NCBI GenBank assembly: GCA_030674475.1
Contig: JAUSCZ010000023.1
Span: 87,819 to 151,818, forward strand
From: Candidatus Omnitrophota bacterium
GTDB taxonomy: Bacteria > Omnitrophota > Gorgyraeia > Gygaellales > UBA12090
Length of the DNA stretch: 64,000 bases
Direction: 5' to 3'
The translations under genes and the position numbers were made by a program. The notes under the pieces are model-generated. The model saw nothing but the letters and a program-made list of their open reading frames with translations. It was not told the DNA's origin and searched no databases. This document shows, in pieces, positions 42,528-63,858 of the stretch (the stretch's first letter is position 1; each line of letters opens with the position of its first letter).

Positions 42528-44252
42528 ATGAACGTGGATATTACCATAAAAATAGCCGGGGAGGCCGGCCAGGGCTTGCAGACTATTGGCCGGCTTCTGG
42601 CTAAGGCGTTTTCCCGGGGAGGCTGGCATGTATTTGCCAATCAGGTTTTGCAATCAAGAATCCGGGGCGGGCACAATTGGTTTCAAGTCCGAGTCTCGGA
42701 TATTAAAATTTTGGCCCCCGCGGAGGTTACTGATATTCTGATTGCCCTGGATAATGAAAGTGTTTATCATACCCGAGAGCTTAGTGAAAATTCGATTACC
42801 ATCTTTGATTCTTCCCTGATTAAATATAATTCCGAAAAGGGATTAATTTTGGATATTCCCTTTGAAAAGACCGCCAAAGAAAGCGGGGGAAATAAGCTGA
42901 TAAGTAATACCGTGGCCCTGGGAGCGGTGTTAGGCCTTCTGGAATACGATATAAATATTTTATTTGGCCTGCTTAAGGAAAGCTTTCAAGAAAAGGATCA
43001 AGGGATTGTTCAGGCTAATATTCAGGCGGCCCAGGCCGGATACAATCTCGCCTACCAAAAGATTAAAGCAAATAAGCTTCCCCGTTTAAACAGGACAAAC
43101 GGCCATCCGAGGATGCTGATTAATGGAAGCGAGACCATAGCTTTAGGGGCCTTGGCCGCCGGATGTAAATTTATCTCAGCTTATCCGATGAGCCCTTCCA
43201 CCGGCATAATGACCTATCTTGCTTCCCAGGCGGAGGAGTTTAAGGTATTAGTGGAGCAGTCCGAGGATGAGATTGCTTCCATAAATCTGGCCTTAGGGGC
43301 TTCTTATGCCGGGGTCCGGGCCATGACCGCTACCAGCGGCGGAGGTTTCGCCCTGATGGTTGAGGGCCTCAGCTTAGCCGGGATGACTGAAACCCCAATA
43401 GTTATTGTGGATGCCCAAAGGCCGGGCCCGGCCACCGGTCTGCCTACCCGGACCGCCCAGGAGGATTTGGAGTATGTAATTTATGCCGGTCACGGTGAAT
43501 CTCCCCGGGCGGTATTGGCTCCTCTAAGCATAGAAGATGCCTTTTATCTGACGGTAAAGGCCTTTAACCTGGCGGATAAATACCAGATACCGGTAATAAT
43601 TTTGAGCGACCAATTATTAGCTGATTCCTATTTAACCGTGGATAGTTTTGATGTTGAAAGCCTAAAGATTGAAAGGCATATCTTAAGCGATGAGGAGTTA
43701 AAGAATATAAAAAACTACAAAAGATACCAAATTACCGATTCGGGAATTTCTCCCCGGGCCTTGCCGGGAAATCCTTACGGCCTGGTGGTGGCGGATAGTG
43801 ATGAACACGATGAAGAGGGCCATATTACCGAGGATGTGGATTATATACGCCCGGAGATGGTCAAGAAAAGAAATCGTAAGACAGCCGGTTTATTGAAAGA
43901 GATGTCCGCGCCGATACAATACGGCCCCCCGGAGGCCAAAAACATAATCATCGGTTGGGGTTCAAGTTACGGCGCGCTTAAAGAAGCGGTGGATATCCTG
44001 AATTCGGAAAAAGAAAAGGTGAGCTTAGCGCATTTTAACCAGGTCTGGCCTTTAAATAAAGAATATTTTGACTTTCTGAATACGGCGGAATTCGTCTGCG
44101 TTGCGGAAAATAATTTCCGCGGGCAATTCGCCCATTTGATTGCCGGGGAAACCGGAAAGGTAATCAAAAACAGGATAAATAAATTTAACGGCTTGCCTTT
44201 TTCGGCGGCAGAGATAGTCCGGGAATATAAGAGGCTAAAAAATAGTTTATAG
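42528..44252 (+). CDS. korA: 2-oxoacid:ferredoxin oxidoreductase, fused gamma-alpha subunit (ORF opens with TTG at 42492; ATG at 42528 preferred)
   Basis: N-terminal gamma-like domain (IKIAGEAGQGLQT), alpha domain (SETIALGALAAGCKFISAYPMSPST), C-terminal domain III; 574 aa from 42528. Confidence 0.8.
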   Translation: MNVDITIKIAGEAGQGLQTIGRLLAKAFSRGGWHVFANQVLQSRIRGGHNWFQVRVSDIKILAPAEVTDILIALDNESVYHTRELSENSITIFDSSLIKYNSEKGLILDIPFEKTAKESGGNKLISNTVALGAVLGLLEYDINILFGLLKESFQEKDQGIVQANIQAAQAGYNLAYQKIKANKLPRLNRTNGHPRMLINGSETIALGALAAGCKFISAYPMSPSTGIMTYLASQAEEFKVLVEQSEDEIASINLALGASYAGVRAMTATSGGGFALMVEGLSLAGMTETPIVIVDAQRPGPATGLPTRTAQEDLEYVIYAGHGESPRAVLAPLSIEDAFYLTVKAFNLADKYQIPVIILSDQLLADSYLTVDSFDVESLKIERHILSDEELKNIKNYKRYQITDSGISPRALPGNPYGLVVADSDEHDEEGHITEDVDYIRPEMVKKRNRKTAGLLKEMSAPIQYGPPEAKNIIIGWGSSYGALKEAVDILNSEKEKVSLAHFNQVWPLNKEYFDFLNTAEFVCVAENNFRGQFAHLIAGETGKVIKNRINKFNGLPFSAAEIVREYKRLKNSL

Positions 44253-44329
44253 TTTATAGTTGATAGTTTATAGTTAATAGCAAATATAGCTAAAACCCTA
44301 AACCCTAAACCCTAAACCCTAAACTAAAT
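44244..44329 (+). mobile_element. heptamer-array element copy A: (AGTTKAT)x5 - AGCAAATATAGCT - (AAACCCT)x4, filling the korA-korB gap
   Basis: Tandem 7-mers read directly. The korA stop codon lies inside the first array and the korB ATG abuts the last repeat; related copies at 52528-52638 and 59918-60024. Confidence 0.6.
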
Positions 44330-49035: not shown

Positions 49036-50199
49036 ATGGAACGGATATATTTAGATTACGCGGCTACTACGCCTTGCGACGCGCGGGTAGTGGAGGCAAT
49101 GCAGCCGTATTTTAGCGAGAAGTTCGGCAATCCCTCAAGCATACATTCTTTTGGTCAGGAGGCCAAGAAGGGTTTGGAGGATAGCCGTCAGGTTTTAGCG
49201 GATTTTTTGGGGGCAAAGCCTGAAGAGATTGTTTTTACCTCTGGTGGCACTGAGTCTAATAATTTTGCAATTTTTGGCATTGCCGCGGCGCAAGAGAAAA
49301 AAGGTAATCATATTATTACCAGCGTGATTGAACATCACGCGGTGAGCGAGCCGTGCAAAGTTTTAGAGAAGAAAGGCTATGCTACAACTTATGTGAAAGT
49401 GGATAAAGAGGGCATAATTGATCCGGCCGAGGTTAAAAAAGCGATTACCGATAAAACGGTCTTGATCTCCATAATGCAGGCTAATAATGAAATTGGGACC
49501 ATTCAGCCCATAGCGGAAATCGGTAAAATTGCCAAAGAAAAAGGGATTACCTTTCATACCGACGCGGTGCAAAGCGTAGGCCATATCCCGGTCAATGTCA
49601 ATGAGTTGAGTGTGGATTTATTAAGCCTTTCGGCGCATAAGTTTTACGGGCCCAAAGGGGTCGGGGCGTTGTATATCCGTAAGGGCATCCGGATAAACCG
49701 TCTTTTGCATGGTGGAGACCAGGAAAAAGGCCGCCGGGCCTCAACCTCTAATGTCAGCGGTATTGTGGGCATGGCCAAGGCCATTGAATTATGTAAAGAA
49801 AAGTTAAATGAGGAAGTCAAATTTCAGTCTGATTTACGCGATACCCTGATTAAAGGTTTAACGGCTAAGATTGAGAGAATTTATCTTAATGGCCATTCTA
49901 AATTGAGACTGCCTAACAATGTAAATATATCTTTTGAGTATATTGAAGGCGAGTCAATGCTTTTGAATCTGGATATGTTAGGGATTGCCGCTTCCACCGG
50001 CTCAGCCTGCACCTCCAGTTTTTTAGAGCCTTCCCATGTCCTGCTGGCTATTGGCCGTCCGCATGATCTAGCCCATGGCTCATTAAGGTTTTCTTTAGGC
50101 CGCTGGACTAAAAAAAGCGATATTGATTACCTTATTGAGGTTCTTCCGGGAATAGTGGATAAATTGCGCCAGATGTCGCCTCTATATGAAAAAAAATAA
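49036..50199 (+). CDS. nifS: cysteine desulfurase (NifS/IscS class)
   Basis: PLP-Lys motif SAHKFYGPKG, active-site loop SGSACTS, 387 aa. Confidence 0.85.
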   Translation: MERIYLDYAATTPCDARVVEAMQPYFSEKFGNPSSIHSFGQEAKKGLEDSRQVLADFLGAKPEEIVFTSGGTESNNFAIFGIAAAQEKKGNHIITSVIEHHAVSEPCKVLEKKGYATTYVKVDKEGIIDPAEVKKAITDKTVLISIMQANNEIGTIQPIAEIGKIAKEKGITFHTDAVQSVGHIPVNVNELSVDLLSLSAHKFYGPKGVGALYIRKGIRINRLLHGGDQEKGRRASTSNVSGIVGMAKAIELCKEKLNEEVKFQSDLRDTLIKGLTAKIERIYLNGHSKLRLPNNVNISFEYIEGESMLLNLDMLGIAASTGSACTSSFLEPSHVLLAIGRPHDLAHGSLRFSLGRWTKKSDIDYLIEVLPGIVDKLRQMSPLYEKK

Positions 50200-51217
50200 G
50201 AAAGCGTTAAGAACTAAAAAATACAGGCTGATGCCAGGAGATGGTAGTTTTATAGCGCGTATCACGGATAGCGTGCTTAAAGGGAGAGAGGTGAATCTCA
50301 GGCAGGCTAAGAGGCTGAACGCGATAAAAGGCGACGATATTTACAGTCTTTTTAATTCGGCCTACAAAATCCGCAAGAAATTTCGGGGGAAAAAGGTGGA
50401 GCTTTGCGCCATCACCAATGCCCGAAGCGGGGCCTGCGCGGAGAACTGCGCTTTTTGCGCCCAGTCCAGTTGGAATAAAACCGCGGTTAAGGTTTATCCC
50501 TTACTTAGCGAGAATGAGCTCTTTAAAAGGGCTAAGCAGGCCCAAAAAACCGGGGCGGGTTATTTTTGTATTGTTACCAGCGGCCGGCGCATCCAGAAGA
50601 AAAGCGATTTTTTGAAAATCTGTAAGGCTATTTCCAAAATCCGCTCTAAGCTAAAACTTAATGTTGATGCCTCATTAGGAGAACTAAGCCTTGATGAAGC
50701 CCGGGCGCTTAAAGACGCTGGCTTATTTCGCTATAACCATAACTTGGAGACTGCCGCAAGCCTGTATCCGGAAGTCTGCACTACCCACACCTATTCTGAC
50801 CGGATAAGGACAATTGAAAATGTCAAACAGGCGGGTTTAGAACTTTGCTGCGGCGGGATATTCGGGATGGGGGAGAGCTGGGCCCAGAGACTGGATCTGG
50901 CTTTTGCCTTGAAAAAGTTTAACCCGGAGTGCATCCCGGTAAACTTCCTGAATCCTGTTGCCGGAACTAGACTTGGCCGGAAAAAACCCTTATCTCCCCT
51001 GGAATTCCTCAAGATTACCGCTATCCTGCGTTTTATCTTTCCCCGCCAGGAAATAAAAATCTGCGGTGGCAGAGAGACCAACCTAAGGAGCCTTCAGCCG
51101 TTAATGTTTTTGGCCGGAGCAGACTCAATGATTATCGGCGACTACCTCACCACCAAAGGCAATCCTCCCCAGGACGACCTTAAAATGATTCAGGATTTAG
51201 GTTTATCCACGAATTGA
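50186..51217 (+). CDS. bioB: biotin synthase-like radical SAM enzyme
   Basis: CxxxCxxC (CAENCAFC) radical-SAM triad, YNHNLETA motif as in BioB; genomic context with bioF/bioC/bioH/bioDA. Confidence 0.65.
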   Translation: MKKNKKALRTKKYRLMPGDGSFIARITDSVLKGREVNLRQAKRLNAIKGDDIYSLFNSAYKIRKKFRGKKVELCAITNARSGACAENCAFCAQSSWNKTAVKVYPLLSENELFKRAKQAQKTGAGYFCIVTSGRRIQKKSDFLKICKAISKIRSKLKLNVDASLGELSLDEARALKDAGLFRYNHNLETAASLYPEVCTTHTYSDRIRTIENVKQAGLELCCGGIFGMGESWAQRLDLAFALKKFNPECIPVNFLNPVAGTRLGRKKPLSPLEFLKITAILRFIFPRQEIKICGGRETNLRSLQPLMFLAGADSMIIGDYLTTKGNPPQDDLKMIQDLGLSTN

Positions 51218-51232
51218 CCCGGACGTGCTACA

Positions 51233-51275
51233 GTAGCGGCGCGATTTATCGCGCTTGGAAGGAGATTTTCGGGTG
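51233..51275 (+). promoter_or_regulatory. conserved leader element (palindrome GGCGCGAT-TT-ATCGCGCT + AAGGAG + N8 + GTG) upstream of bioF; second copy at 62324-62366
   Basis: 43-nt sequence about 88% identical to 62324-62366; the differences inside the palindrome are compensatory. Confidence 0.55.
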
Positions 51276-52436
51276 ATAAATTTTAAAGAAGAATTGGCCG
51301 CGCTGGAAGCCAGAGGCTTAAGGCGCAAAATGCGCTTTGTTTCTTCGTCTTGCGATAGATACATCACGATTGAGGGTAAAAAGGTTTTAAACTTTTGCTC
51401 CAATAATTATCTGGGCCTGGCTAATGATAAACGGCTGAAAGCGGCGGCAATCTCGGCAATCAATAAATTTGGAGTGGGAACTGGGGCCTCAAGATTAGTT
51501 TCCGGCAGTAATATCCTGCATAAGCAATTAGAAGAAAAATTGGCTGATTTTAAAAGGCAGGAAGCCTGTTTAGTTTATCCCAGCGGCTATAGCGCCAATT
51601 TAGGGATAATTTCCGCCTTGGCAGATAGAAACAGTATTGTTTTTTGCGACCGCTTGAATCACGCTTCAATTATTGACGGGATTATCTTAAGCCGGGCCGA
51701 GCTGGTGAGGTATCCGCATCGGGATGTAGAAGCGTTAGAAAAATTGTTAGGTTACCATGTCACAAAGTCACAAAGTCACCAGAAACGATTGATAGTAACC
51801 GATAGCGTATTTAGTATGGATGGGGATATTGCTCCTTTGCCGGAGCTTTTGCGCTTAGCCAAAAAATACGATTGCCTGCTGATGATTGATGAAGCCCACG
51901 CCACCGGCGTTTTGGGTAAGAGCGGCAGAGGGACCTTGGAACATTTTGGCCTCAAGGCCAATAAGCGGATAATCCAGATGGGGACTTTGAGCAAGGCTTT
52001 GGGTGGCCTGGGCGGATTTCTCTGCGCAAGCCGGGAGCTGATTGACTATTTGGTTAACCGTTCGCGTTCCTTTATCTTTAGCACTGCCTTGCCCGCGGCT
52101 CTATGCGCCAGCGCTTTAGAGGCAATCAGGATAATTGAGAGAGGCGGCAATCAGCACGCAAGGCTTTTAAGTAATGCCAATTTTTTAAGAGACGGCCTAA
52201 ACTCCTTAGGTTTTAATACCTTAGAGTCTCAAACCCCGATTATTCCCATCCTCACCAAAGAACCGCGCCTAACCATGGAGTTCAGCCAAAAGCTATTTGA
52301 AAAAGGCATCTTGGTTCAAGGCATCCGCCCCCCGGCTGTCCCCGATAACCTCTGCCGTCTCCGGGTCACGGTGACGGCCAGCCACACCAAAGGCGATTTA
52401 GAGTTTGCCTTAAGTATGTTTAAAAAGATAAGATAA
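51273..52436 (+). CDS. bioF: 8-amino-7-oxononanoate synthase (ORF track starts at TTG 51255; GTG 51273 has AAGGAG 8 nt upstream)
   Basis: Class II aminotransferase fold of alpha-oxoamine synthases; PLP-Lys in TLSKALGGLGG; context with other bio genes. Confidence 0.65.
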   Translation: MINFKEELAALEARGLRRKMRFVSSSCDRYITIEGKKVLNFCSNNYLGLANDKRLKAAAISAINKFGVGTGASRLVSGSNILHKQLEEKLADFKRQEACLVYPSGYSANLGIISALADRNSIVFCDRLNHASIIDGIILSRAELVRYPHRDVEALEKLLGYHVTKSQSHQKRLIVTDSVFSMDGDIAPLPELLRLAKKYDCLLMIDEAHATGVLGKSGRGTLEHFGLKANKRIIQMGTLSKALGGLGGFLCASRELIDYLVNRSRSFIFSTALPAALCASALEAIRIIERGGNQHARLLSNANFLRDGLNSLGFNTLESQTPIIPILTKEPRLTMEFSQKLFEKGILVQGIRPPAVPDNLCRLRVTVTASHTKGDLEFALSMFKKIR

Positions 52437-52527
52437 TAGTAGCTCCTGCCCAAGAAAGCGCTTGCCCAAAACCCCTGTTTTGCCCTTGTTTTTACCCCTT
52501 TTATGTGGTTTACTTTAGGTAGCCGAA

Positions 52528-52638
52528 TTAGTTTATAGCTGATAGTTGATAGTTTAGAGCAAAAGATTAGCGAACTAAATAGAATTTATGTTTGTTTTTT
52601 TGCTATCAACTATCCGCTATCAACTATCAACCAAATAT
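52528..52638 (+). mobile_element. heptamer-array element copy B with terminal inverted heptamer arrays, inserted exactly between the ancestral leader (…CTTTAGGT) and the start codon of giant paralog 3
   Basis: Left array agtttat-agctgat-agttgat-agtttag, right array (reverse complement) gctatca-actatcc-gctatca-actatca. The flanking 52464-52524 aligns with 1424-1476 upstream of paralog 1, where the ATG follows immediately. Confidence 0.65.
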
Positions 52639-55600
52639 ATGCCTTTACGCCTAACCAAATTCCTATCTCTGTTTCTCTCTTTCTGCCTTATCCTTGAGCA
52701 GAGCGTCTTTGCTCAAAGCATAGACCTTTCCCATTACTTTGCCAACTCTGGCAAACCTATTATCCAGAGCGATAAATTTCGGCCCTTACACCTAAGGTAT
52801 CTAGGCTATGATAACTTGAGTCAGGACTTTAAGCTACTTTTAGATAAGGGAGATACTAAGAAGGAGGACTTAGAGAACAAAGCCTACATAGAAGAAAACA
52901 CCCAAACCCTGCTCAAATACTTCTTCATCGGATTAAGCCTGCCTAATGATAAGTTTTGGGTTAACCTAAGGCCGGATGCCTCGGAGAATATCATAGATGA
53001 CGACTTAGCCAAGACAGATATCGGCAGGATTATGCTGGAAGCTGATGTCCAGCTAAAGAAGGATACTGCAAGCTATACCTCACCCCAGGCCAAAGAAGGC
53101 CGGGAATACTGGGATAAGCTGTATAAGAAAGCAGAAGAGCTATTCGGAACCGAAAACATCACCATCCCCACCCTAACTAGGCCATGGATTGTCCCGGACG
53201 AGATTATTTTAAGAGAATCTCCGGATAACAGCGCCTACATTTACAAAGCTACCCTCAAGGTGATGTTGGAAGAGGACTACCTAAAAACCAGCAACCAGCC
53301 CGTCCTGGCAAAGCGAAGCGGGCCAGGGAAACCAGTAACCAGTAACCAGGTATATTCTTTTAGTGACCCCAGGCTAAAAGAGCTTAATCAATATTCTACC
53401 CAGCTAATCAAGGAAACCATAATCCCCAAGCTCACCCAGGAGATCAACTCATCCAGGAGATACGCTCCCCTAAGACAAGTCTATTACTCTCTCATCTTAG
53501 CCCAGCACTTTAAACGGAAGTTTGCCAAGCAGCCCTCGGGGCAGGCAGGAGAAAATCCCTATGTTAAGCTGATTGACTCCTGTAACCTTACCAACCTAAC
53601 CTCCAAAGAACCCTGGGATAAACTTACCTGCTTCCAAGGCTATCAGAAATCCTTTCAGCAGGGAGAATACAATATTCAAGAGCCGGTGTATACGCCTACG
53701 GGGCAGGCAATAAGAAGCTATTTTAGTGGGGGGCAGCTTCTAACAAATATTCTCAGAGTAACAACGGTAACCCCGGGGTTTGGACCACCTTCTATTTCAG
53801 GCAGCATCCATTTGAAAAAAATTGACTATTCTGTTTCGCCGGTTGCCAAAGGGGACGTAAGCCTTTTGACTGGGTTAAGGTCAAGCTCAGCGATTGAGGA
53901 AAGAAATAATGCGTCTTTATTATCTATGGGAAACTCGACCTTGAAAGGAAGGCCAACGAGAATAATGCTTTCTTTCTTTTCTAACGTTCGTGATAAATCT
54001 AAGCTTGACAATCCATTGGGAGTCGCAGTCTTAGGTGGTACTTTGAAACAGCAACTTAAGGATACTGTCCATATTGTTATGGCACATCATCTGATTGATG
54101 GCGGAGTAGAAGGAATCATCGAAAAAATAAAGATTGAGCATCCGGAAATATTAGGATTATCTCTCGGCTTTGGTTCTTTGCAACAACTGATTACTGTTAT
54201 GCAATATATTCGTTCATTGCCAGCCGCGGAAAGACCCATTGTTGCTTTAGGTAATGTTGTAGCGACTTATAACACAGAATTTTTTCTGAAGCAATACCCG
54301 GAGGTTTTTATTTGTGCAGGGCAAGGTGAAATGGCAATAGTCGATCTCGTCAAATATCGCAGAGGCGAAATAAAGAAAAATGAAATACATGATGTTGTGT
54401 ATATGAATGATGGTCAGATTATTGCAAATCCAAGGAGTCAGTCATTTCTCGTAGATATGGGAACGCCTATGACAGACTTTTTGCCCGATGTAGTAAAATC
54501 CGGGGGTGTTGTTTATATGGAGACCTCGCGCGGCTGTCCTTTTAATTGTACGATATGCGCGCGCAGACCTTTTTTGGGCATAGGTTGGAAAGGCAGGAAT
54601 TTAGATAATATTATTGGCGATATGGAGAAGGCGGCTAACTTGGGCGTCAAATTTATTAACTTTGTTGATGAAGATCTATTTGCTGGCGGTATGAAAAGGG
54701 TGATTCGTTTTGCTCAAATGATTCATGAGGCAAGAAAAGCAGGACGGATTCCTGATGATCTTATTTTTGGTACATCGGTAAGCGTAAGGAATATTTACAG
54801 AATAAATGATTCATTAGAAAATAATCTAAAAAGAAAGCAAGCCTTGGAATTATTGAAAGAGGCCGGCCTTACAGTTCTTTTCATAGGGATTGAATCTGGT
54901 TCGCCAAAGCAACTCGAGCGCTATGGTAAGGCTGCAACCATCAAAGAGAACGAGGAAGCCATTAGGATTATTGAGGATTGTGGAATATGGACTATCCCGG
55001 GTTTTATTATGCTGGATCCGCTTGTGACAATAGAGGAGATCAGGGAGAATATTGATTTTTTAAGACGAACAGGGATGGATGCCCGGATTACGTATCCTTT
55101 AAAGACATATATCCCAATGATAGGAAGCTCTTACACTCAAAAATTAATTGAAGAAGGTTTAGTTTATTCAGTCTCCTATATTCCTGATCGGTTAGCATAC
55201 GAATATTCATTTAGAGAAAAAAGAGTCGCAGATATCTTAAAAAGAATAAAAGATTGGGAAGAAAGCCAAGCAATGTTTTTCTGGGATCTAAAAATTATTT
55301 TTCGTTCCTCGCGTTTTGGTGAATTAAGCCGGGATAAACAAGAATTGGTTAGGACATTAGTTGATAAACAAACCAAGATTTTATTAGATTATTTGGATGA
55401 AATGGTTAATCTAAGCTTGAGCGAAATAGAACAAAAAGAAGTTTTTCAGAGAATATCTTTTAAGTTTGGCGTCCGCTTGATTAACGATATGTTGGAGGCC
55501 TTGCAGTACGTGGAAAATGGTTATTTGCCGCTTGGAGACAAAGAATTCAGAAGTATTATACAGAAAAGTATTATTCGGGAGATTTTGCGGTTATACTTTA

Positions 55601-56247
55601 CACAAAAACAATTTTCGATGGAGGAAGTAAGGCGTATTATCTCTGAGGAATTCCACTATAAATTTAAAGAAGATATTTTAAAGGAAATTTTTGCTTTGTT
55701 TATTAAGGAAGAACGCATCAAACAAATAGACGATAAGACGTTCTGCTTACACGAAAAGTTTTTTGTCTACAGGAATATTCCGTGGCCAGATTTGCCTAGG
55801 CCAGCTAAAGTTATAGTTGGCATTGATGATTTGGCAAGCTCGCCGTTGATTCCTCAGAAAGTTAAATTCCCGGGTGGCATCGACTTACGTTTTCTCCCTA
55901 TAGTTACCCAGGCCATAAGCAACCTAAGTTTGAACGCTTCCCGTATTCCTTTAAGCAAGTTGGATAGCATTAACCTTAATCAGGAATGGCGCCAGATACA
56001 AAAGATGGTTGAAGCCGGCATTACGCCATCAGCGGAGAGGATTAAGGAGTATATCCAGCTATCTTATCTTAATAAAGGTGAACCTAATGATATGCAGAAA
56101 GTCATTTCTTGCATTGCGGATATATTAAGATCTGAAGAAGAGCGCTGCGTTTCTACTGAGCCAACGCTAAAAGATATTCTGGTTGTGCTTGAGTCAGGAC
56201 GGTCGGCTCAGGAACTAAAAGCTGTTTTTACCGGTAGTCAGTCCTAA
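52639..56247 (+). CDS. giant paralog 3 (1203 aa from ATG 52639; ORF track begins at 52588 inside the inserted element). Family N module + B12-binding-like domain + radical-SAM core + family C module
   Basis: N-terminal 330 aa align with paralogs 1 and 2. Middle has a Rossmann-like B12-binding region, then radical SAM CxxxCxxC (CPFNCTIC) and FINFVDEDLF. C-terminus has the family C module (GGIDLRFLPIVTQ ... VEAGITPSAERIKEY ... ISCIADILRSEEER). Confidence 0.7.
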   Translation: MPLRLTKFLSLFLSFCLILEQSVFAQSIDLSHYFANSGKPIIQSDKFRPLHLRYLGYDNLSQDFKLLLDKGDTKKEDLENKAYIEENTQTLLKYFFIGLSLPNDKFWVNLRPDASENIIDDDLAKTDIGRIMLEADVQLKKDTASYTSPQAKEGREYWDKLYKKAEELFGTENITIPTLTRPWIVPDEIILRESPDNSAYIYKATLKVMLEEDYLKTSNQPVLAKRSGPGKPVTSNQVYSFSDPRLKELNQYSTQLIKETIIPKLTQEINSSRRYAPLRQVYYSLILAQHFKRKFAKQPSGQAGENPYVKLIDSCNLTNLTSKEPWDKLTCFQGYQKSFQQGEYNIQEPVYTPTGQAIRSYFSGGQLLTNILRVTTVTPGFGPPSISGSIHLKKIDYSVSPVAKGDVSLLTGLRSSSAIEERNNASLLSMGNSTLKGRPTRIMLSFFSNVRDKSKLDNPLGVAVLGGTLKQQLKDTVHIVMAHHLIDGGVEGIIEKIKIEHPEILGLSLGFGSLQQLITVMQYIRSLPAAERPIVALGNVVATYNTEFFLKQYPEVFICAGQGEMAIVDLVKYRRGEIKKNEIHDVVYMNDGQIIANPRSQSFLVDMGTPMTDFLPDVVKSGGVVYMETSRGCPFNCTICARRPFLGIGWKGRNLDNIIGDMEKAANLGVKFINFVDEDLFAGGMKRVIRFAQMIHEARKAGRIPDDLIFGTSVSVRNIYRINDSLENNLKRKQALELLKEAGLTVLFIGIESGSPKQLERYGKAATIKENEEAIRIIEDCGIWTIPGFIMLDPLVTIEEIRENIDFLRRTGMDARITYPLKTYIPMIGSSYTQKLIEEGLVYSVSYIPDRLAYEYSFREKRVADILKRIKDWEESQAMFFWDLKIIFRSSRFGELSRDKQELVRTLVDKQTKILLDYLDEMVNLSLSEIEQKEVFQRISFKFGVRLINDMLEALQYVENGYLPLGDKEFRSIIQKSIIREILRLYFTQKQFSMEEVRRIISEEFHYKFKEDILKEIFALFIKEERIKQIDDKTFCLHEKFFVYRNIPWPDLPRPAKVIVGIDDLASSPLIPQKVKFPGGIDLRFLPIVTQAISNLSLNASRIPLSKLDSINLNQEWRQIQKMVEAGITPSAERIKEYIQLSYLNKGEPNDMQKVISCIADILRSEEERCVSTEPTLKDILVVLESGRSAQELKAVFTGSQS

Positions 56248-57364: not shown

Positions 57365-58291
57365 ATGCTGAATAGCAATAATTATATTGGCAAAATCAGG
57401 GAAATGCTGGAAAAAACCGGCTGGGGGCAAGCTCAATTTGCCCAGGAGCTGGGCGTAACTTTTGCCACAGTTAACCGCTGGCTCAACGGCCACCACAGGC
57501 CGCATTTGAGCCAGATACGCCAGATTGAGAGGTTACATAAAAACATTATCGGAATCATCCCGGTAACCAAGCAAGAAATGGAGCAGATTATTTTACAGTT
57601 GAAGGCCAAGATAAAGCAGTATCCGGATATTAAGAAAATCTTGCGGGATGATACAACATCCGAGGAGTTTCTGTTGGAGTTGACCTATAATTCCGACGCC
57701 ATTGAGGGGAATACATTAACTAAGAAAGAGACGGAAACAGTTATCTTCAATAACGCCTCTATCAAGGATAAAAGCTTAATTGAACATCTGGAGGCGGTAA
57801 ATCATGCGGTGATCCTGAAGGATATTTTTTCGGGGAAGATTGGCTGCCCGGTTGATGAAGAGCTGATAAAAAAGACGCATAAGATATTGATGCAGGGCAT
57901 CCGGGATGACGCCGGCGAATACGCCAGCCATCAGAGGGCAATCCGGGGGGTGGATTTGATCCTGCCGTCCCCCGATGATATTGCCGGGGAAATGAAGTTA
58001 TTTTTAAGCAAAGTTAATGACTTCCCGCCTCGACCGATTGAGCATATTGCCAGGATGCACGCGGATTTTGAGGCGATTCATCCTTTCGGCGACGGCAATG
58101 GCCGCGTAGGACGGCTGATTATGATTGTTCAGTTAATTCATTGTGGTTTTGCTCCCTGTATCATTAGCGTTAATGAAAAAGCCCGGTATTATGAATCCCT
58201 AGAATATGTCCAAAAAAAGTCTGAAACGCATCTTGTGTGTTTCCTGGCTGAAGCGGTATTGAAGGGCTATGAGTTAATTAGTTCTCACTGA
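57365..58291 (+). CDS. Fic-family protein with N-terminal Xre-type HTH
   Basis: HTH (GQAQFAQELGVTFATVNRWLNG) and Fic motif HPFGDGNGRVGR. Confidence 0.8.
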   Translation: MLNSNNYIGKIREMLEKTGWGQAQFAQELGVTFATVNRWLNGHHRPHLSQIRQIERLHKNIIGIIPVTKQEMEQIILQLKAKIKQYPDIKKILRDDTTSEEFLLELTYNSDAIEGNTLTKKETETVIFNNASIKDKSLIEHLEAVNHAVILKDIFSGKIGCPVDEELIKKTHKILMQGIRDDAGEYASHQRAIRGVDLILPSPDDIAGEMKLFLSKVNDFPPRPIEHIARMHADFEAIHPFGDGNGRVGRLIMIVQLIHCGFAPCIISVNEKARYYESLEYVQKKSETHLVCFLAEAVLKGYELISSH

Positions 58292-58450
58292 AAAACTCTC
58301 GTTTTTCAGTGAGAACTAATTCCAAAGGGGCTCACGCCCCTATGGCGTTCGTTCCGACTCCGTCGGAACTCACTGTTACCCCTTAAGGGGGTTGCCTGCA
58401 ACCCCCTTAAAATCCCCCAGTAGTTACCACTTTTTCAGTGGTAACTAATT
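58279..58450 (+). other. cluster of five consecutive perfect stem-loops bounded by direct repeats TTTTTCAGTGRKAACTAATT (58302-58321 and 58431-58450); candidate structured RNA or REP/MITE-like insertion
   Basis: Five stems read directly: a 17-bp stem covering the Fic stop; aggggc-tcac-gcccct; gttccgac-tcc-gtcggaac; ttaagggggttg-cctg-caacccccttaa; agttaccact-ttttc-agtggtaact. Confidence 0.5.
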
Positions 58451-59171: not shown

Positions 59172-59929
59172 TTTCCACTCAAAAAATAAGAGATAATTTT
59201 TCCCGCAGCGCGATACATTATGAGAAATACGCGGATATTCAGGCCAAGCTGGCCCAAGAACTACTGGAAGAGGTAATCGGAGCAGGATATACAGCGAATG
59301 AGGTCTTGGACATTGGATGCGGAACCGGATGGCTATTGGGTGAGCTAAAGAGATTTCTGCCCCAAAGCCGGCTCTGGGGTTTGGATATCAGCCTGGCAAT
59401 GGCGCGTAAGACAAAAGCAAAGATTGAAGAGGTGTTGACCGCGGATGCCGCCTTTTTGCCGTTTAAGGATAAGGCCTTGGACCTGGTTTTATCCAATGCC
59501 GTTTATCAATGGGTGCCGGATTTGGAGGCGGCCTTTAAAGAGGCGCGTAGGATTCTTAAATCCGGCGGCTGTTTTATGTTTAATTGCTTTGGGGCCAAGA
59601 CCTTGCGGGAACTGCGCCAGTGTTTTGGGATAGAGGAAACCTTTCTTCCTCGGGCGGATTTTATAAGAGAGGCGTTGGAGAGGGCAGGGTTTTCCTGCCC
59701 GGAGTTTAAGGTCAGGGAGTGCAACCGGCATTTTGATAATTTAGCCGATATCTTAAGCTGGCTGAAATATATCGGGGTAAACCGGATTAATCAGCATCAG
59801 GGGTTTTTAACCCCGTCCCGGCTGGCTAAGGCCGACCATTTCTATCGCAGTAACTTTCGCGGTAACGGCCAGGTCTATGCCACCTTTGAGGTCATCAGCG
59901 TAAAAGCAATAAAAGCAGTTGATAGTTGA
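59168..59929 (+). CDS. bioC: malonyl-ACP O-methyltransferase
   Basis: SAM-binding motif LDIGCGTGW, about 250 aa, N-terminal YEKYADIQ typical of BioC; the stop codon lies inside element copy C. Confidence 0.6.
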   Translation: MISTQKIRDNFSRSAIHYEKYADIQAKLAQELLEEVIGAGYTANEVLDIGCGTGWLLGELKRFLPQSRLWGLDISLAMARKTKAKIEEVLTADAAFLPFKDKALDLVLSNAVYQWVPDLEAAFKEARRILKSGGCFMFNCFGAKTLRELRQCFGIEETFLPRADFIREALERAGFSCPEFKVRECNRHFDNLADILSWLKYIGVNRINQHQGFLTPSRLAKADHFYRSNFRGNGQVYATFEVISVKAIKAVDS

Positions 59930-60024
59930 TAGTGTATGCCTGCCTGCCGGCAGGGTTTATAGCAAATAAATTAAAACTGTTTATCAATGAGCTATAAACT
60001 ATCAACCATAAACCATAAACTAAA
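59918..60024 (+). mobile_element. heptamer-array element copy C (GTTGATAGTTGATAGT - palindrome CCTGCCGGCAGG - …AAACTAT CAACCAT AAACCAT AAACTAA) between bioC and bioDA
   Basis: Read directly; provides the bioC stop codon and abuts the bioDA ATG with no SD. Confidence 0.6.
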
Positions 60025-62049
60025 ATGTCTAATTCTATATTTATCACCGCAACCGATACCGGAGCCGGGAAAACCATTATTTCCTGCGCCATTGGCCTGG
60101 CCTTGCAAAAAAAAGGTATTGATGTTGGATATATGAAACCATTTCAATGCTCCGGCGATGACACGGATTTTGTGATTAAGACCTTAGGTATTCAAGACGA
60201 TAAAAATTTGGTTAATCCTTATTACGCGAAAGAGCCGCTTGCTCCCTATGTCGCCTTTAAAAGGGAAAAAATAAGGATCAATTTAGATAAAGTCTTTTCC
60301 GCGTATCATAAGTTAAAAAAAAGACACGAATTCCTTATCATTGAAGGCGCCGGCGGGCTGTTAGTTCCCTTGCGAGAAAATTATCTGGTTGCGGATTTGA
60401 TCCGGGACCTGGATGTCCCGGCGCTCATTGTGGCCAGGGCAGGCTTAGGGACATTGAATCATACTTTGCTTACCCAAAGATACGCCCTGGATTACGGGGT
60501 TAAGGTTAAAGGCGTAATCATTAATAATTATCAAGGAAAGACTGCCGCGGAAAAGACCAATCCCAATGTCTTAAAGGAATTCCTGGATGTGCCTATTTTA
60601 GGAATAGTTCCTTGGTTGAAAAATGTTAAGTCTAAAGATGGCTTGAGGAGGCTGGGGAAAATAGCCGGGGAAAATATAGATTTAAAGACTTTACTAAAAA
60701 CAGAAAAGCCCCTCACCCGGCAGTTGATTAAGCGGGATAAGGATTTCCTCTGGCATCCTTTTACCCAGATGCGGGATTGGCTTAAGGATGAGCCTTTAAT
60801 TATTGATGAGGCCAAGGGGAATTATTTGAAAGATACTAACGGCAAATGGTATTTAGACGGAGTCTCCAGCCTTTGGGTGAATGTTCACGGCCACCGCAGA
60901 AGAGAGATAGACATAGCCATAAATAGACAACTGAATAAGGTGGCCCATAGCACATTGTTGGGATTAAGCAATGTGCCTTCTATTGAATTGGCCCAGCGGC
61001 TGGTAGAGATTGCCCCCAAAGGCCTGATCAAGGTTTTTTATTCCGACAGCGGCTCAACCGCGGTGGAGATTGCCTTGAAGATGGCTTATCAATATTGGCA
61101 GTATCTGGATAAGGCTAAAACAAGATTTATTCATTTGGAGAACGCCTATCATGGAGATACCATAGGCTCGGTGAGTGTGGGCGGGATGGATTTGTTTCAT
61201 AAGACCTACAAGGGTCTGCTTTTTGAGAGCTATAAGGCGGATTCGCCTTATTGCTACCGCTGTCCCAAGGGTAAAAATTATCCTGGGTGTAATTTTGAGT
61301 GTCTGGATAGGCTAAGAGATATTTTAAGACAACATCATTCTTCAACTGCCGCGCTTATAGTTGAGCCTTTAGTCCAGGCCGCCGGCGGTATCATTGTTTG
61401 GCCTGAAGGCGTATATAGGAAGATGCGCGAGCTTTGCCATAAGCATAATGTGCTTTTGATTGCCGATGAGGTGGCCGTAGGTTTTGGGAGGACTGGCTAT
61501 ATATTTGCCTCTGAGACTGAAGGTGTAACGCCGGATATCTTGTGCTTAGCCAAGGGGATTACCGGGGGGTATCTGCCTTTAGCCGCCACCCTGACTACCC
61601 AAAAGATATTTGATGCCTTTTCGGGAGAGTATAAGGAACAAAAGACTTTTTTTCACGGACACACCTATACCGGAAATCCCCTGGCCTGCGCCGCTGCCTT
61701 GGCCAATTTAGGGCTTTTTAAAAAAGAAAAAACCCTCCAAAAACTTCAGCCCAAGATTAAATTTTTAGGAAAAGAATTAGAGAAGTTTAAGAAATTGGAG
61801 CATATCGGAGACATCCGCCAGAAGGGTTTTATGGTGGGAATTGAACTGGTAAAAAATAAAGGAACCAAAGAGCCGTATTCCTGGGAAGAAAGGATTGGGA
61901 TAAAGATTTGCCAAAAGGCCAGGGAATATGGGGTCATCCTGCGCCCCTTAGGCAATGTCATTGTCCTTATGCCGCCTTTGGCGATAAGCAAAGAGGAATT
62001 GAAACAGCTTGTTGATGCCGCCTATAAGGCGATAAGTTTTGTGCAATGA
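60025..62049 (+). CDS. bioDA: bifunctional dethiobiotin synthetase / adenosylmethionine-8-amino-7-oxononanoate aminotransferase fusion (BioD-BioA)
   Basis: N-terminal BioD P-loop FITATDTGAGKT and EGAGGLLVP. C-terminal class-III aminotransferase motifs (DEVAVGFGRTG, HGHTYTGNPLACAAALA). 674 aa, a single ORF. Confidence 0.8.
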   Translation: MSNSIFITATDTGAGKTIISCAIGLALQKKGIDVGYMKPFQCSGDDTDFVIKTLGIQDDKNLVNPYYAKEPLAPYVAFKREKIRINLDKVFSAYHKLKKRHEFLIIEGAGGLLVPLRENYLVADLIRDLDVPALIVARAGLGTLNHTLLTQRYALDYGVKVKGVIINNYQGKTAAEKTNPNVLKEFLDVPILGIVPWLKNVKSKDGLRRLGKIAGENIDLKTLLKTEKPLTRQLIKRDKDFLWHPFTQMRDWLKDEPLIIDEAKGNYLKDTNGKWYLDGVSSLWVNVHGHRRREIDIAINRQLNKVAHSTLLGLSNVPSIELAQRLVEIAPKGLIKVFYSDSGSTAVEIALKMAYQYWQYLDKAKTRFIHLENAYHGDTIGSVSVGGMDLFHKTYKGLLFESYKADSPYCYRCPKGKNYPGCNFECLDRLRDILRQHHSSTAALIVEPLVQAAGGIIVWPEGVYRKMRELCHKHNVLLIADEVAVGFGRTGYIFASETEGVTPDILCLAKGITGGYLPLAATLTTQKIFDAFSGEYKEQKTFFHGHTYTGNPLACAAALANLGLFKKEKTLQKLQPKIKFLGKELEKFKKLEHIGDIRQKGFMVGIELVKNKGTKEPYSWEERIGIKICQKAREYGVILRPLGNVIVLMPPLAISKEELKQLVDAAYKAISFVQ

Positions 62050-62323
62050 GGATGAAGAGAATGTGGCTGACGGTTTTCTCGCTCAAGTCGATTTTGCCCC
62101 GCCTTTGGCGGGGCCGCCAAAGGTCTTTCGTATTTTCGGCGGCGGCGGGCCTCGCCCCGGCGGCCTCGTCGGGGCTCCGACAGCCGCGCCGTCCCGATAT
62201 TGTCCCGACTATCGTCGGGACATCGGGATTCCCGAAAATCCGAAAGCTGCTTTGGCTAAAATCGACATTCGCTGCGAAAACCGTCAGCCCCATTATTTAC
62301 ATTCTATCTTTTAGAAGTTTTAT

Positions 62324-62366
62324 GTAGCGGTGCGATTTATCGCACCTGTAAGGAGATTTTCAGGTG
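62324..62366 (+). promoter_or_regulatory. second copy of the conserved leader element (palindrome GGTGCGAT-TT-ATCGCACC + AAGGAG + N8 + GTG) upstream of the YjeF-N gene
   Basis: See 51233-51275; the palindrome arms carry compensatory substitutions. Confidence 0.55.
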
Positions 62367-63017
62367 AAAAATATAATTTCTGTCAGCCAGGCCAGAGAAA
62401 TTGATAACAGGATGCGGGAGAATTTTGGCGTGCCTTGTCTTGTGCTTATGGAAAATGCCGGAAGGTCGGTTGCTGAGGAGGCATTAAAGGCGTTAAGGGA
62501 TAAGAAAAGAACAGGTGTTGTTATCGTATGCGGAAAAGGTAATAACGGCGCTGACGGATTGGCCGCCTGCCGCCATCTGATGTGCCGGGGAATCAAGCCC
62601 AAGATATTCTTAGCCGCAAAGATTAGCCAGGTGCGGGGTGAAGCCAGGGTAAATTTGGATATTCTCTTAAAAATGAAACAGAAGGTGGTTGAGGTAAATA
62701 ATAAGAACTTAGCATTGGTAAGAAGATCTATTCTTGAATCCGGTTTGATTATTGATGCCCTTTTGGGAATAGGGATAAAAAGAGAGGTAAGAGGGATATT
62801 CCGGGATTTGATAAATATTATTAATGTCAGTAAGGCTTATATAATCGCGGTGGATGTCCCTTCAGGCCTGGATGCGGATAGCGGTAAGGCGCTGGGTTGT
62901 TGCGTAAAGGCGGATAAGACCGTAACCTTTGTGGCTAAGAAACAAGGAATGATTTCAGGGGCCGGCCCTGAATACTGCGGCAGGGTGATTGTGAGAGATT
63001 TAGGCGTAAAAATATAA
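62364..63017 (+). CDS. nnrE: NAD(P)H-hydrate epimerase (YjeF N-terminal domain, stand-alone)
   Basis: VIVCGKGNNGADG motif of the YjeF-N domain; 217 aa, with no C-terminal dehydratase domain. Confidence 0.65.
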   Translation: MKNIISVSQAREIDNRMRENFGVPCLVLMENAGRSVAEEALKALRDKKRTGVVIVCGKGNNGADGLAACRHLMCRGIKPKIFLAAKISQVRGEARVNLDILLKMKQKVVEVNNKNLALVRRSILESGLIIDALLGIGIKREVRGIFRDLINIINVSKAYIIAVDVPSGLDADSGKALGCCVKADKTVTFVAKKQGMISGAGPEYCGRVIVRDLGVKI

Positions 63018-63024
63018 CTTACTT

Positions 63025-63858
63025 ATGTCTGGGATTTTTAAGACGGAGAATACTCCGACTATTCTTTATCGGCAATGGATGATTCCAGAGTCCGGGGTGG
63101 TGTTGTTGCTGGTCCACGGTCTTGGCGCGCATACCGAGCGTTGGGAAGCCTTGGCGGATTTTTTTCAAAAGAATAATATCTCATCTTACGCCCTGGAACT
63201 TAAGGGTTTTGGCCGAACACAAGGAGAAAGAGGGGATGTGGATAGTCTGGATACCTACTTTCAGGATATTCGCTCACTCTATGATATAATCAGACAGGAG
63301 AATCCGAATAAAAAAATCTTTCTCCTGGGCGAGAGTATGGGGGCATTGATTTGTTTTTTATTTGCCGTTTCAGCCCCGCGGCTTTTTCCCGGCTTAATCT
63401 GTATCAGCCCGGCCTTTGCCGGTAAACTGCATTTTAACCTTTGGACATATCTAAATATAGGGCTGGCCTTGGTTTTTAATCTTAAAAGGCATTTTCCAGT
63501 GCCGATTACTCCTCAAATGTGCACCCAGGATACTGAATATCAAAAGATAATTGATGCTGACCCTCTGGATAAGCATACTGCCACAGCCCGGCTTTACTGG
63601 AATATCTTTAAGGCTCAAAAGAAGGTTAAATCTTGGGGAGATAAAATCAATATTCCCTTGTTGGTTTTAACCGCGGGAGAAGATACGGTAGTGGATTCTT
63701 TAGCCACGCGCAAAATTTTCAACAGCTTAAGAATTAAAGACAAAGAGATTATCAATTATGCCGGCATGCGCCATGCCCTTTCCGTTGATTTAGGAAAGGA
63801 AAAGGTTTTTGGAGATATTTTACGCTGGTTAGAGAAAATAATGAGAGGATCGCTATGA
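63025..63858 (+). CDS. alpha/beta hydrolase (lysophospholipase/monoacylglycerol lipase-like)
   Basis: LLVHGLGAH, nucleophile elbow GESMG, C-terminal His in MRHAL; 277 aa. Confidence 0.6.

What the first reader, a model, noticed from the sequence alone, without database searches (positions are those of the whole stretch)
51233..51275. Conserved 43-nt leader (palindrome-AAGGAG-N8-GTG) shared by bioF and nnrE, with compensatory changes in the palindrome
gtagcggCgcgatttatcgcGcTtgGaaggagattttcGggtg (51233-51275) and gtagcggTgcgatttatcgcAcCtgTaaggagattttcAggtg (62324-62366) differ at five positions. Within the 8-bp arms (GGYGCGAT / ATCGCRCY) the C-G pair becomes U-A and a G.U wobble becomes G-C, so the hairpin is preserved. 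A stem-loop 5 nt upstream of a perfect SD, repeated in front of unrelated genes, suggests a functional RNA element. It could be a stabiliser, RNase site or translational regulator, or a binding site for a dimeric protein. Other 5' regions in the window do not carry it.
Basis: seen in the sequence. Interest (0 to 1): 0.6.

Follow-up and report, generated by a model that had tools for sequence, protein, structure and literature searches.

The report
REP hairpin fused to ribosome-binding site
The shared 43-base "leader" is a copy of a widespread bacterial repeat, a GTAG-tagged REP hairpin, which in this Omnitrophota lineage is joined to a ribosome-binding site and a GTG start codon and sits directly in front of several unrelated genes.

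Summary
Two 43-nt blocks (51233-51275, 62324-62366) are 38/43 identical and have unrelated flanks. Each ends in the GTG start of a gene, bioF and nnrE.

The 5' 23 nt is not a private leader. GTAGC plus a 7-bp stem and TTTA loop is a GTAG-tagged REP hairpin. The same 22-mer occurs at more than 117 loci: REP doublets in Pantoea/Erwinia, and copies in Omnitrophota, WOR-3, Zixibacteria, Planctomycetota and other phyla. The C-G to U-A change is the difference between two common sub-variants.

What is unusual is the fusion of hairpin, AAGGAG, an 8-nt spacer and GTG as one unit. This unit also precedes a secreted-protein gene and a pilin-like gene in other Omnitrophota.

Orthologous bioB-bioF junctions carry it in the closest relatives, with 1 change in 43 nt where the coding flanks differ by about 19%. 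Two outgroups are empty (stop, 4 nt, ATG).

I read it as a REP-derived unit that supplies translation initiation signals and is kept by selection. A role for the hairpin in RNA is inferred, not shown. It is a new variant of a known kind, of moderate interest.

The parts
50186..51217 (+). bioB (biotin synthase), the gene upstream of copy 1
   Evidence: Pfam Radical_SAM + BATS. Its TGA stop lies 15 nt before the GTAG tag.
51218..51232 (+). 15-nt spacer between the bioB stop and the tag; possibly a diverged 5' extension of the unit (CGTGCTACA, compared with CCGTGTCGC in L127/L128/L145)
   Evidence: Alignments. It is much less conserved between orthologs than the block (11-12/16).
51233..51237 (+). 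Unpaired GTAGC tag of REP copy 1
   Evidence: Invariant in all 10 block copies. It is the defining GTAG tag of the REP superfamily (PMC3733652).
51238..51255 (+). Hairpin of copy 1: stem 51238-51244 with 51249-51255 (outer pair G.U), loop TTTA
   Evidence: Fold, pair counts, covariance model hit at 39.3 bits and E 4e-7.
51259..51264 (+). Shine-Dalgarno AAGGAG of bioF, part of the repeated unit
   Evidence: Empty orthologous junctions have no such motif.
51273..51275 (+). GTG start codon of bioF, the last 3 nt of the unit
   Evidence: It occupies the same codon position as the ATG of orthologs that lack the block. Homologs cover 100% of the 387-aa protein.
51273..52436 (+). bioF (8-amino-7-oxononanoate synthase)
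   Evidence: Pfam Aminotran_1_2 and named homologs.
62324..62328 (+). Unpaired GTAGC tag of REP copy 2
62329..62346 (+). Hairpin of copy 2: stem 62329-62335 with 62340-62346 (U-A variant, outer pair G-C), loop TTTA
   Evidence: and (39.2 bits, E 4e-7).
62350..62355 (+). Shine-Dalgarno AAGGAG of nnrE, part of the unit
62364..62366 (+). GTG start codon of nnrE, the last 3 nt of the unit
   Evidence: The 217-aa product is identical to the NCBI protein.
62364..63017 (+). nnrE (YjeF_N, NAD(P)H-hydrate epimerase). The gene and its leader are absent from relatives L133 and L132, where bioD-bioA abuts the hydrolase gene.

Best explanation
The 43-nt block is a composite of two things. The first is a GTAG-tagged REP (repetitive extragenic palindrome) hairpin: GTAGC, a 7-bp GC-rich stem and a TTTA loop. 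The second is a complete translation initiation region: AAGGAG, 8 nt and GTG.

In one Omnitrophota lineage this composite behaves as a single unit of 43 nt, or about 60 nt in some copies. It has been installed directly in front of codon 2 of at least four unrelated genes: bioF, the nnrE locus, a CarboxypepD_reg-like secreted protein and a pilin-like gene. At bioF it replaced a 4-nt junction with no Shine-Dalgarno motif and an ATG start.

Once installed it is the only ribosome-binding site and start codon of the downstream gene, so purifying selection keeps it.

Shown here:
- Membership of the hairpin in a widespread REP family.
- Multiple copies of the full unit in front of unrelated genes.
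- Filled versus empty orthologous sites.
- Much stronger conservation of the block than of the flanking coding sequence.
- Maintenance of pairing, with only G.U exceptions on the sense strand.

Inferred:
- The hairpin is transcribed with the gene and acts in the mRNA as an intercistronic or 5' stem-loop. It could block 3' exonucleases for the upstream cistron, protect the 5' end of a processed downstream cistron, or both.
- The unit originally spread by the REP/RAYT (Y1 transposase) route or by recombination at the hairpin.

The confidence given applies to the identity of the block (a REP hairpin fused to, and serving as, the translation initiation region). The RNA-level role of the hairpin on its own I put at about 0.4.
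For: (1) REP identity.
- In Pantoea/Erwinia it forms typical inverted doublets.
- In Pantoea locus L088, clusters of it flank a weak Y1-transposase gene.
- Other Omnitrophota MAGs carry it as doublets.
- The GTAGGGG variant is in 7 viral contigs.
- At least 12 stem variants keep full complementarity, while the tag and the ATTYAT loop are constant.
- This matches the published description of GTAG REPs (PMC3733652).

(2) The unit includes the Shine-Dalgarno motif and the start codon.
- L127, L128, L145/L146 and L144 carry the same block before unrelated genes. All end at the start codon: GTG in all but L144, which has ATG.
- The W2 and L145 blocks are 43/43 identical.

(3) Gain.
- The block is present at the bioB-bioF junction in L130/L131 (89% and 88% nt identity to the window over 3.4 kb) and L133-135 (84%).
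- It is absent in the successive outgroups L132 (78.5%) and L142/L143 (73.6%). These have stop, 4 nt and ATG at the same codon.
- L147 is empty at the secreted-protein gene.

(4) Selection.
- Two independent ortholog pairs give 4 differences in 86 block positions, against 162 in 841 adjacent coding positions (Fisher p = 3e-4).
- At the orthologous nnrE site the window has U-A where L136 has C-G.
- All six non-Watson-Crick cells are G.U on the sense strand, from about four independent events. None is A.C.

(5) Placement.
- In non-enterobacterial genomes, 7 of 42 canonical copies lie 12-29 nt before a Shine-Dalgarno-led start in sense orientation, and 0 in antisense (p = 0.016).
- In Enterobacterales 2 of 93 copies do so (Fisher p = 0.004).
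Against: - No transcript data. An RNA role for the hairpin is only inferred.
- Predicted accessibility of the Shine-Dalgarno motif is no better with the hairpin than with a scrambled or deleted one.
- The fold energy of the 43-mers is not exceptional against shuffles (z -1 to -1.7).
- When all stem variants are counted, the orientation bias weakens to 9 versus 2 (p = 0.065).
- The invariant unpaired GTAGC tag and the invariant loop are what a RAYT-type DNA-level constraint predicts, not what a simple RNA stabiliser needs.
- Only two copies are seen in 64 kb, and no RAYT gene is in the window. High copy number and a cognate transposase could not be checked in the source genome.
- How a unit could land exactly at a start codon is unknown.
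Confidence: 0.65

Rival explanations
1. The hairpin is a purely selfish or neutral REP with no host function. The REP landed next to, or was copied together with, a ribosome-binding site. The hairpin is conserved because of REP/RAYT maintenance or gene conversion among copies. Only the Shine-Dalgarno motif and GTG are under host selection.
For: - The unpaired GTAGC tag and the TTTA loop are invariant in all 10 copies, as expected for RAYT recognition (PMC3733652).
- The W2 and L145 blocks are 43/43 identical although their downstream genes are unrelated. This fits recent copying or conversion.
- The hairpin has no predicted effect on accessibility of the Shine-Dalgarno motif.
- In compact genomes the intergenic spacer is little more than REP plus ribosome-binding site, so closeness to the start may be forced.
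Against: - The hairpin half is as conserved as the Shine-Dalgarno half across orthologs that differ by about 19% in coding sequence.
- W1 and W2 in the same genome are not homogenised (5 differences), which argues against strong gene conversion.
- Non-Watson-Crick changes are all G.U on the sense strand.
- Sense orientation before gene starts is enriched.
- No RAYT gene is seen in the window or in the Omnitrophota loci held.
Confidence: 0.25
2. The hairpin is a DNA-level recombination site at whose 3' foot genes, each with its own ribosome-binding site, are exchanged or inserted. This would make it a cassette junction rather than an RNA element.
For: - L137-L140 share the window's upstream flank (98/105 identical) and the hairpin. 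They diverge from the last two stem bases onward, and a SIR2_2 gene sits between the hairpin and nnrE.
- nnrE together with its leader is present or absent between bioD-bioA and the hydrolase gene in close relatives.
- From my own knowledge, REPs are reported targets of insertion sequences and sites of recombination.
Against: - This rests on a single example.
- At bioF the same gene lies downstream in both filled and empty genomes, so no cassette was exchanged there.
- No recombinase gene is adjacent.
Confidence: 0.07
3. It is a gene-specific regulatory leader for biotin or NAD-repair genes. It would be either an operator for a dimeric repressor such as BirA or a metabolite-sensing RNA.
For: - Both window copies lie inside or next to the biotin cluster (bioB, bioF, bioH-like, bioC-like, bioD-bioA).
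- The site is a palindrome.
Against: - The same block precedes pilin-like and secreted-protein genes.
- The hairpin occurs at more than 117 unrelated loci.
- Biotin clusters of the outgroups lack it.
- The stem sequence varies while complementarity is kept.
- Rfam gives nothing. The best local hit is SAM-VI at 16 bits against a 57.5-bit threshold, E 1.6.
- The hairpin does not pair with the Shine-Dalgarno motif.
Confidence: 0.02
4. It is a recent local duplication, a chance similarity or an assembly artefact with no significance.
For: Only two copies are present in the window.
Against: - The chance expectation is about 2e-7.
- The block is found in independent assemblies from NCBI, ENA, JGI and Logan.
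- It is conserved at orthologous loci down to 84% nucleotide identity.
Confidence: 0.01

Closest known systems
GTAG-tagged REP / REPIN elements (Nunvar 2010, PMC2817692; Bertels & Rainey 2011, PMC3116915; Di Nocera 2013, PMC3733652), including the SMAG repeats of Stenotrophomonas
   Same: - Unpaired 5' GTAG tag next to a 6-13-bp GC-rich stem with a 2-4-nt loop.
- Extragenic location.
- Sub-families that differ by complementary stem changes.
- G.T pairs that suggest a transcribed role.
- The identical 22-mer forms classical inverted doublets, and flanks a Y1-transposase-like gene, in Pantoea.
   Different: - Published REPs between same-direction genes lie close to the 3' end of the upstream ORF and at variable distance from the downstream one. 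These copies instead sit at a fixed register before the downstream start.
- They are singletons.
- The repeated unit extends 20 nt beyond the hairpin to include a Shine-Dalgarno motif and the start codon.
- Copy number and a RAYT gene in the source genome are unknown.
- The held literature has no paper that mentions Omnitrophota together with extragenic palindromes.
MIRUs (mycobacterial interspersed repetitive units; Supply 1997, as summarised in PMC12548453)
   Same: Short intercistronic repeats, oriented with the flanking genes, that sit exactly at start codons. They carry translation signals, so the downstream gene stays expressed.
   Different: - MIRUs work through a small internal ORF translationally coupled to the gene (-4 overlap), and they occur as tandem arrays.
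- Here every copy does end in GTGA or ATGA, but the overlapping reading frame is not conserved: it is closed by a stop in L130 and has no start in W2.
- There are no tandem arrays.
- The unit has a REP hairpin and a canonical Shine-Dalgarno motif instead.
5'-terminal or intercistronic stabilising stem-loops of bacterial mRNAs, such as the ompA 5' hairpin and the REP-stabilised malE 3' end (from my own knowledge)
   Same: A stable hairpin without a U-tract sits just outside the ribosome-binding region of a gene within an operon.
   Different: Those are single-locus elements with experimental support. Here nothing is known about transcript ends, and the hairpin belongs to a multi-copy repeat family.

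Membership tests
GTAG-tagged REP superfamily | Unpaired GTAG (GTRG) tetranucleotide at one end of the palindrome | tested here: met
   GTAGC directly precedes the stem in both window copies and is invariant in all 10 block copies.
GTAG-tagged REP superfamily | Short GC-rich stem (6-13 bp) with a small loop (2-4 nt) | tested here: met
   7-bp stem and TTTA loop.
GTAG-tagged REP superfamily | Sub-families with alternative complementary stem residues | tested here: met
   At least 12 stem variants, almost all 4/4 complementary at the four variable pairs. They were collected without requiring complementarity.
GTAG-tagged REP superfamily | Many copies per genome, in extragenic positions | tested here: inconclusive
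   Both window copies are extragenic, but there are only 2 in 64 kb and the rest of the source genome is not available. Pantoea sp. App145 has 18 loci (19 counting its plasmids) among the 117 the truncated scan returned. Logan contigs L125 and L146 both break inside the hairpin, as expected for a repeat.
GTAG-tagged REP superfamily | Frequent inverted doublets (REPIN/BIME) | tested here: not met
   The window copies and all full-block copies are singletons. Doublets of the same family do occur in other Omnitrophota MAGs (L054, L045, L123) and in Pantoea. Singleton-rich REP families are known, so this does not exclude membership.
GTAG-tagged REP superfamily | Cognate RAYT (Y1 transposase) gene in the genome, typically flanked by the REPs | not testable with these tools
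   tblastn with E. coli RayT gives no hit in the window, and the source genome beyond 64 kb could not be fetched. In Pantoea L088 a weak Y1_Tnp ORF (17.5 bits; tblastn E 2e-4) is flanked by clusters of this REP.
GTAG-tagged REP superfamily | Typical placement close to the 3' end of the upstream ORF, at variable distance from the downstream ORF | tested here: not met
   The block abuts the downstream start codon at every locus. In non-enterobacterial genomes the distance from hairpin to start clusters at 17-22 nt. This is a description of usual behaviour rather than a definition.
MIRU-like start-codon repeats | Internal small ORF whose stop overlaps the start codon of the downstream gene (translational coupling) | tested here: not met
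   All copies end in GTGA or ATGA, but the frame ending at that TGA has no conserved start and is closed by a stop in L130.
Known cis-regulatory RNA families (Rfam 15) | Match to a curated covariance model | tested here: not met
   No hit at gathering thresholds in the window. Only chance-level hits appear locally at E up to 10.
Intrinsic terminator | GC-rich hairpin followed by a U-tract | tested here: not met
   The hairpin is followed by TTGGAAGGAG or CTGTAAGGAG, with no T run. The scan does not call it as a terminator.

The most novel reading that the evidence does not exclude
The unit is a portable translation-initiation cassette derived from a REP. It is a mobile element of 43 to about 60 nt that homes to start codons. 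It brings its own hairpin, strong Shine-Dalgarno motif and GTG, and so converts coupled or Shine-Dalgarno-less genes into independently initiated ones.

The underlying hairpin family, with a near-identical 22-mer from Pantoea to Omnitrophota, WOR-3, Zixibacteria, Planctomycetota, Chloroflexia and others, would then be either transferred between phyla or recognised by an ancient conserved factor. That would run against the view of REP/RAYT systems as lineage-specific and vertically inherited.
Probability: 0.25. Interest if true: 0.7.

Novelty: new variant of a known kind. Interest (0 to 1): 0.5.

Why it matters
REPs are usually treated as 3'-end or intergenic hairpins, and their effect on genes is seen as incidental. 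Here a REP is welded to a ribosome-binding site and a start codon. The unit is repeated in front of unrelated genes and is then conserved more strongly than the genes themselves.

If confirmed, it would be a clear natural case of a repeat element supplying translation signals. The nearest parallel is the mycobacterial MIRU, but the mechanism differs.

It also bears on annotation. NCBI placed the bioF start 19 codons too far downstream, and hairpins of this kind can be mistranslated into short spurious ORFs.

Finally, the near-identity of the hairpin across more than ten phyla raises the question of how REP families spread.

Tried and rejected
- **Biotin or NAD-specific operator or riboswitch:** rejected. 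The block sits before unrelated genes, outgroup biotin clusters lack it, and Rfam gives nothing.
- **Leader peptide coupled through the GTGA overlap, as in MIRUs:** rejected. The frame is not conserved.
- **Hairpin as an insulator that keeps the Shine-Dalgarno motif single-stranded:** not supported. Partition-function calculations with native, scrambled and deleted hairpins show no consistent effect.
- **Sigma-70-type promoter just upstream of copy 2** (TTTACA-17-TTTTAT seen by eye), which would put the hairpin at the mRNA 5' end: the consensus scan finds no promoter at either copy. Omnitrophota promoters are unknown, so this stays open.
- **Intrinsic terminator:** rejected because there is no U-tract.
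- **RAYT gene in the window:** none found by tblastn with E. coli RayT. The Y1 transposase in WOR-3 locus L098 is flanked by different hairpins, so it is not informative.
- **More copies in viral contigs:** none.
- **Whether the third block (L145/L146) is in the same genome as the window:** unresolved. It comes from the same sequencing run, but its NCBI protein accession lies in a different range, which suggests another MAG.

Full report
**Observation**

They share 38 of 43 positions, and the flanks on both sides are unrelated. About 2e-7 such pairs are expected by chance in 64 kb. The palindrome pattern is strongly over-represented against shuffles.

Each block reads: GTAGC, a 7-bp stem, a TTTA loop, 3 nt, AAGGAG, 8 nt, GTG. 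The GTG is the start of bioF (51273) in one copy and of a YjeF_N/nnrE gene (62364) in the other. RNAfold gives the hairpin in both. A covariance model of the hairpin family finds these two copies and nothing else in the window.

**Context**

The window comes from a Candidatus Omnitrophota MAG. Copy 1 lies in the 55-nt spacer between bioB and bioF. Copy 2 follows a 315-nt repeat-rich spacer downstream of a bioD-bioA fusion gene.

**What the 5' half is**

The 22-mer GTAGCGGNGCGATTTATCGCNC is not private to this genome.

- In Pantoea, Erwinia and relatives it is a classical REP. It occurs at many loci per genome, mostly as inverted doublets with the GTAG tags outermost.
- In Pantoea locus L088, clusters of it flank a weak Y1-transposase ORF, the arrangement expected of a RAYT gene with its REPs.
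- The T..A variant seen at nnrE occurs in MAGs of Omnitrophota, Ratteibacteria, Sumerlaeota, WOR-3, Zixibacteria, Planctomycetota, Desantisbacteria, Edwardsbacteria and Clostridia.
- The C..G variant seen at bioF also occurs in Chloroflexia and Armatimonadia.
- A GTAGGGG variant is in seven viral contigs.

I collected family members without requiring complementarity. At least 12 different 4-bp stem cores turned up, almost all perfectly complementary, while the tag and the ATTYAT centre stay constant.

This is the published description of GTAG-tagged REPs: a terminal GTAG, stems of 6-13 bp, loops of 2-4 nt, sub-families with complementary stem changes, and G-T pairs (PMC3733652).

**What is unusual**

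The similarity between the two window copies continues for 20 nt beyond the hairpin, through the Shine-Dalgarno motif and spacer to the GTG. None of the 135 genome hits shares that 3' half. A metagenome scan for the hairpin arm followed by TGNAAGGAG did find two more full blocks:

- L127, before a signal-peptide protein.
- L128, before a gene with a prepilin N-terminal methylation motif.

Orthologs of the L127 gene gave three further loci:

- L145/L146. Its block is 43/43 identical to the nnrE copy. L146 comes from the same sequencing run as the window, but probably from another MAG.
- L144. It has a U.G intermediate in the stem and an ATG start.
- L147. It is empty, with ATG at the same codon position.

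In L127, L128, L144 and L145 the shared sequence extends about 16 nt further 5' (GGATCATCCGTGTCGC). The bioF spacer looks like a diverged version of this extension.

So a unit of 43 to about 60 nt, ending exactly at the start codon, precedes at least four unrelated genes.

**Orthologous sites**

Synteny around bioF is conserved in relatives.

- The block sits at the bioB-bioF junction in L130 and L131 (89% and 88% nucleotide identity to the window over 3.4 kb) and in L133-135 (84%).
- The successive outgroups L132 (78.5%) and L142/L143 (73.6%) have stop, 4 nt and ATG instead. They have no Shine-Dalgarno motif, and codon 2 onward is collinear.
- One gain in the ancestor of the inner clade is the most economical reading.

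Since that gain the block has changed at 1 of 43 positions between the window and L133. The adjacent bioF coding sequence differs at 17-19% of positions, and the 16 nt upstream at 25%. Pooling two independent ortholog pairs gives 4/86 differences in the block against 162/841 in coding sequence (Fisher p = 3e-4).

At the nnrE locus:

- The syntenic relative L136 carries the block with C-G where the window has U-A.
- L133 and L132 lack nnrE and its leader altogether.
- L137-L140 share the window's upstream flank and the hairpin, but a SIR2_2 gene with a diverged Shine-Dalgarno region has been inserted before nnrE.

**Structure**

On the ten block copies every cell of the 7-bp helix pairs. The variable pair is CG in 5 copies, UA in 4 and UG in 1. 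All six non-Watson-Crick cells are G.U on the sense strand, which corresponds to about four independent events. None is the A.C that an antisense or strand-neutral constraint would allow.

This is suggestive evidence that the sense strand, as RNA or as single-stranded DNA, is what is constrained. It is not strong evidence.

**Placement in other lineages**

Among canonical hits from non-enterobacterial genomes, 7 of 42 lie 12-29 nt upstream of a Shine-Dalgarno-led start in sense orientation, mostly at 17-21 nt. None does so in antisense (p = 0.016). In Enterobacterales 2 of 93 do so (Fisher p = 0.004).

With all stem variants counted the contrast is 9 versus 2 (p = 0.065). Several of these copies fill short spacers between genes that point the same way. 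The published pattern for REPs is the opposite: close to the upstream stop and at variable distance from the downstream start.

**Mechanism**

The Shine-Dalgarno motif and GTG of the unit are the only initiation signals of the downstream genes. Their function and conservation therefore need no further explanation.

For the hairpin I favour a role in the mRNA as an intercistronic or 5' stem-loop that affects transcript stability. Three things point that way: sense-strand wobble pairs, sense orientation, and conservation equal to that of the Shine-Dalgarno half.

This remains an inference, for these reasons:

- There are no transcript data.
- In-silico accessibility of the Shine-Dalgarno motif is unaffected by the hairpin.
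- The invariant unpaired tag and loop fit RAYT-type recognition at least as well.

The main rival is that the hairpin is a selfish REP carried along with an adopted ribosome-binding site. A minor rival, prompted by the SIR2_2 insertion, is that the foot of the hairpin is a recombination junction.

I reject the gene-specific regulator, terminator, coupled leader peptide, chance and artefact readings.

**Comparison and verdict**

The hairpin meets the structural definition of a GTAG REP. Copy number and a cognate RAYT gene could not be tested in the source genome.

The fusion to a ribosome-binding site and start codon, the fixed register at gene starts and the singleton state set it apart from described REP families. 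The nearest functional parallel is the mycobacterial MIRU, which inserts at start codons (PMC12548453), but its coupled small ORF is not conserved here. The held literature has no paper that mentions Omnitrophota together with extragenic palindromes.

I rate it a new variant of a known kind, with interest 0.5.

Noticed in passing
window 62049-62305: A unit of about 257 bp bounded by 30-nt imperfect terminal inverted repeats (83% complementary), with a GC-rich interior full of small hairpins. It lies directly upstream of copy 2. Relatives L133 and L132 lack the whole 62032-63114 segment. It looks like a MITE-type insertion.
   Followed up: partly
window 44242-44324, 52526-52560, 52599-52631, 59903-59937, 59987-60023: Short heptamer arrays in intergenic spacers: ATAGTTT x5.6, then AAACCCT x4.6 (the plant-telomere-type unit), and CTATCAA/TAGTTGA arrays in inverted orientation. 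The last flank the segment between bioF and bioD-bioA that holds the B12-radical-SAM, Fic, bioH-like and bioC-like genes.
   Followed up: no
window 51273 versus 51330: The NCBI protein for bioF (368 aa) starts 19 codons downstream of the GTG. The 387-aa form is supported by full-length homologs and by conservation of the N-terminal residues in orthologs that lack the block. The deposited start is probably wrong.
   Followed up: yes
L137-L140 (for example L137:170-1250): These loci have the same upstream flank and hairpin as window copy 2. A SIR2_2-domain gene, a family often linked to phage defence, with its own diverged Shine-Dalgarno motif and GTG, sits between the hairpin and nnrE. Sequence divergence starts at the last two bases of the stem.
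   Followed up: partly
L125:1 and L146:1 (Logan contigs of SRR13727527): Two independent contigs begin at the same base inside the hairpin (TCGCACCTGTAAGGAG...). This is as expected if the identical 43-mer exceeds the assembler's k-mer and breaks the graph. It is indirect evidence that the block is repeated in that sample.
   Followed up: partly
loci L008-L124 (genome-contig hits): A near-identical REP 22-mer is shared by Enterobacterales (Pantoea, Erwinia) and by MAGs of more than ten other phyla. In the uncultured phyla it is often paired with a second hairpin that has a different stem but the same CCGCTAC end (for example GTCGGATGAATCCGACCGCTAC). REP families are usually described as lineage-specific.
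   Followed up: partly
window 1502-2546, 5815-6644, 52664-53756: Three paralogous stretches (65-85% identical) belong to large genes. The one scanned, 52588-56247, encodes a 1219-aa protein with B12-binding and radical-SAM domains. It is inserted between bioF and the rest of the biotin genes.
   Followed up: no
window 15935-15978 and 59935-59954: A near-perfect 20-nt inverted repeat (TAAACTTATGCCTTCCTGCC ... GGCAGGCAGGCATAAGTTTA), with a related GCCTGCCTGCCGGCAGG palindrome in the bioC/bioD-bioA spacer. This is another small repeat family. A degenerate GTAGCG-tagged hairpin lies on the minus strand at about 15918.
   Followed up: no
window 58276-58321: A perfect 21-nt inverted repeat with a 4-nt loop overlaps the last 16 nt of the HTH-Fic gene (57365-58291) and extends 30 nt beyond its stop. 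It is probably a terminator or another hairpin repeat.
   Followed up: no
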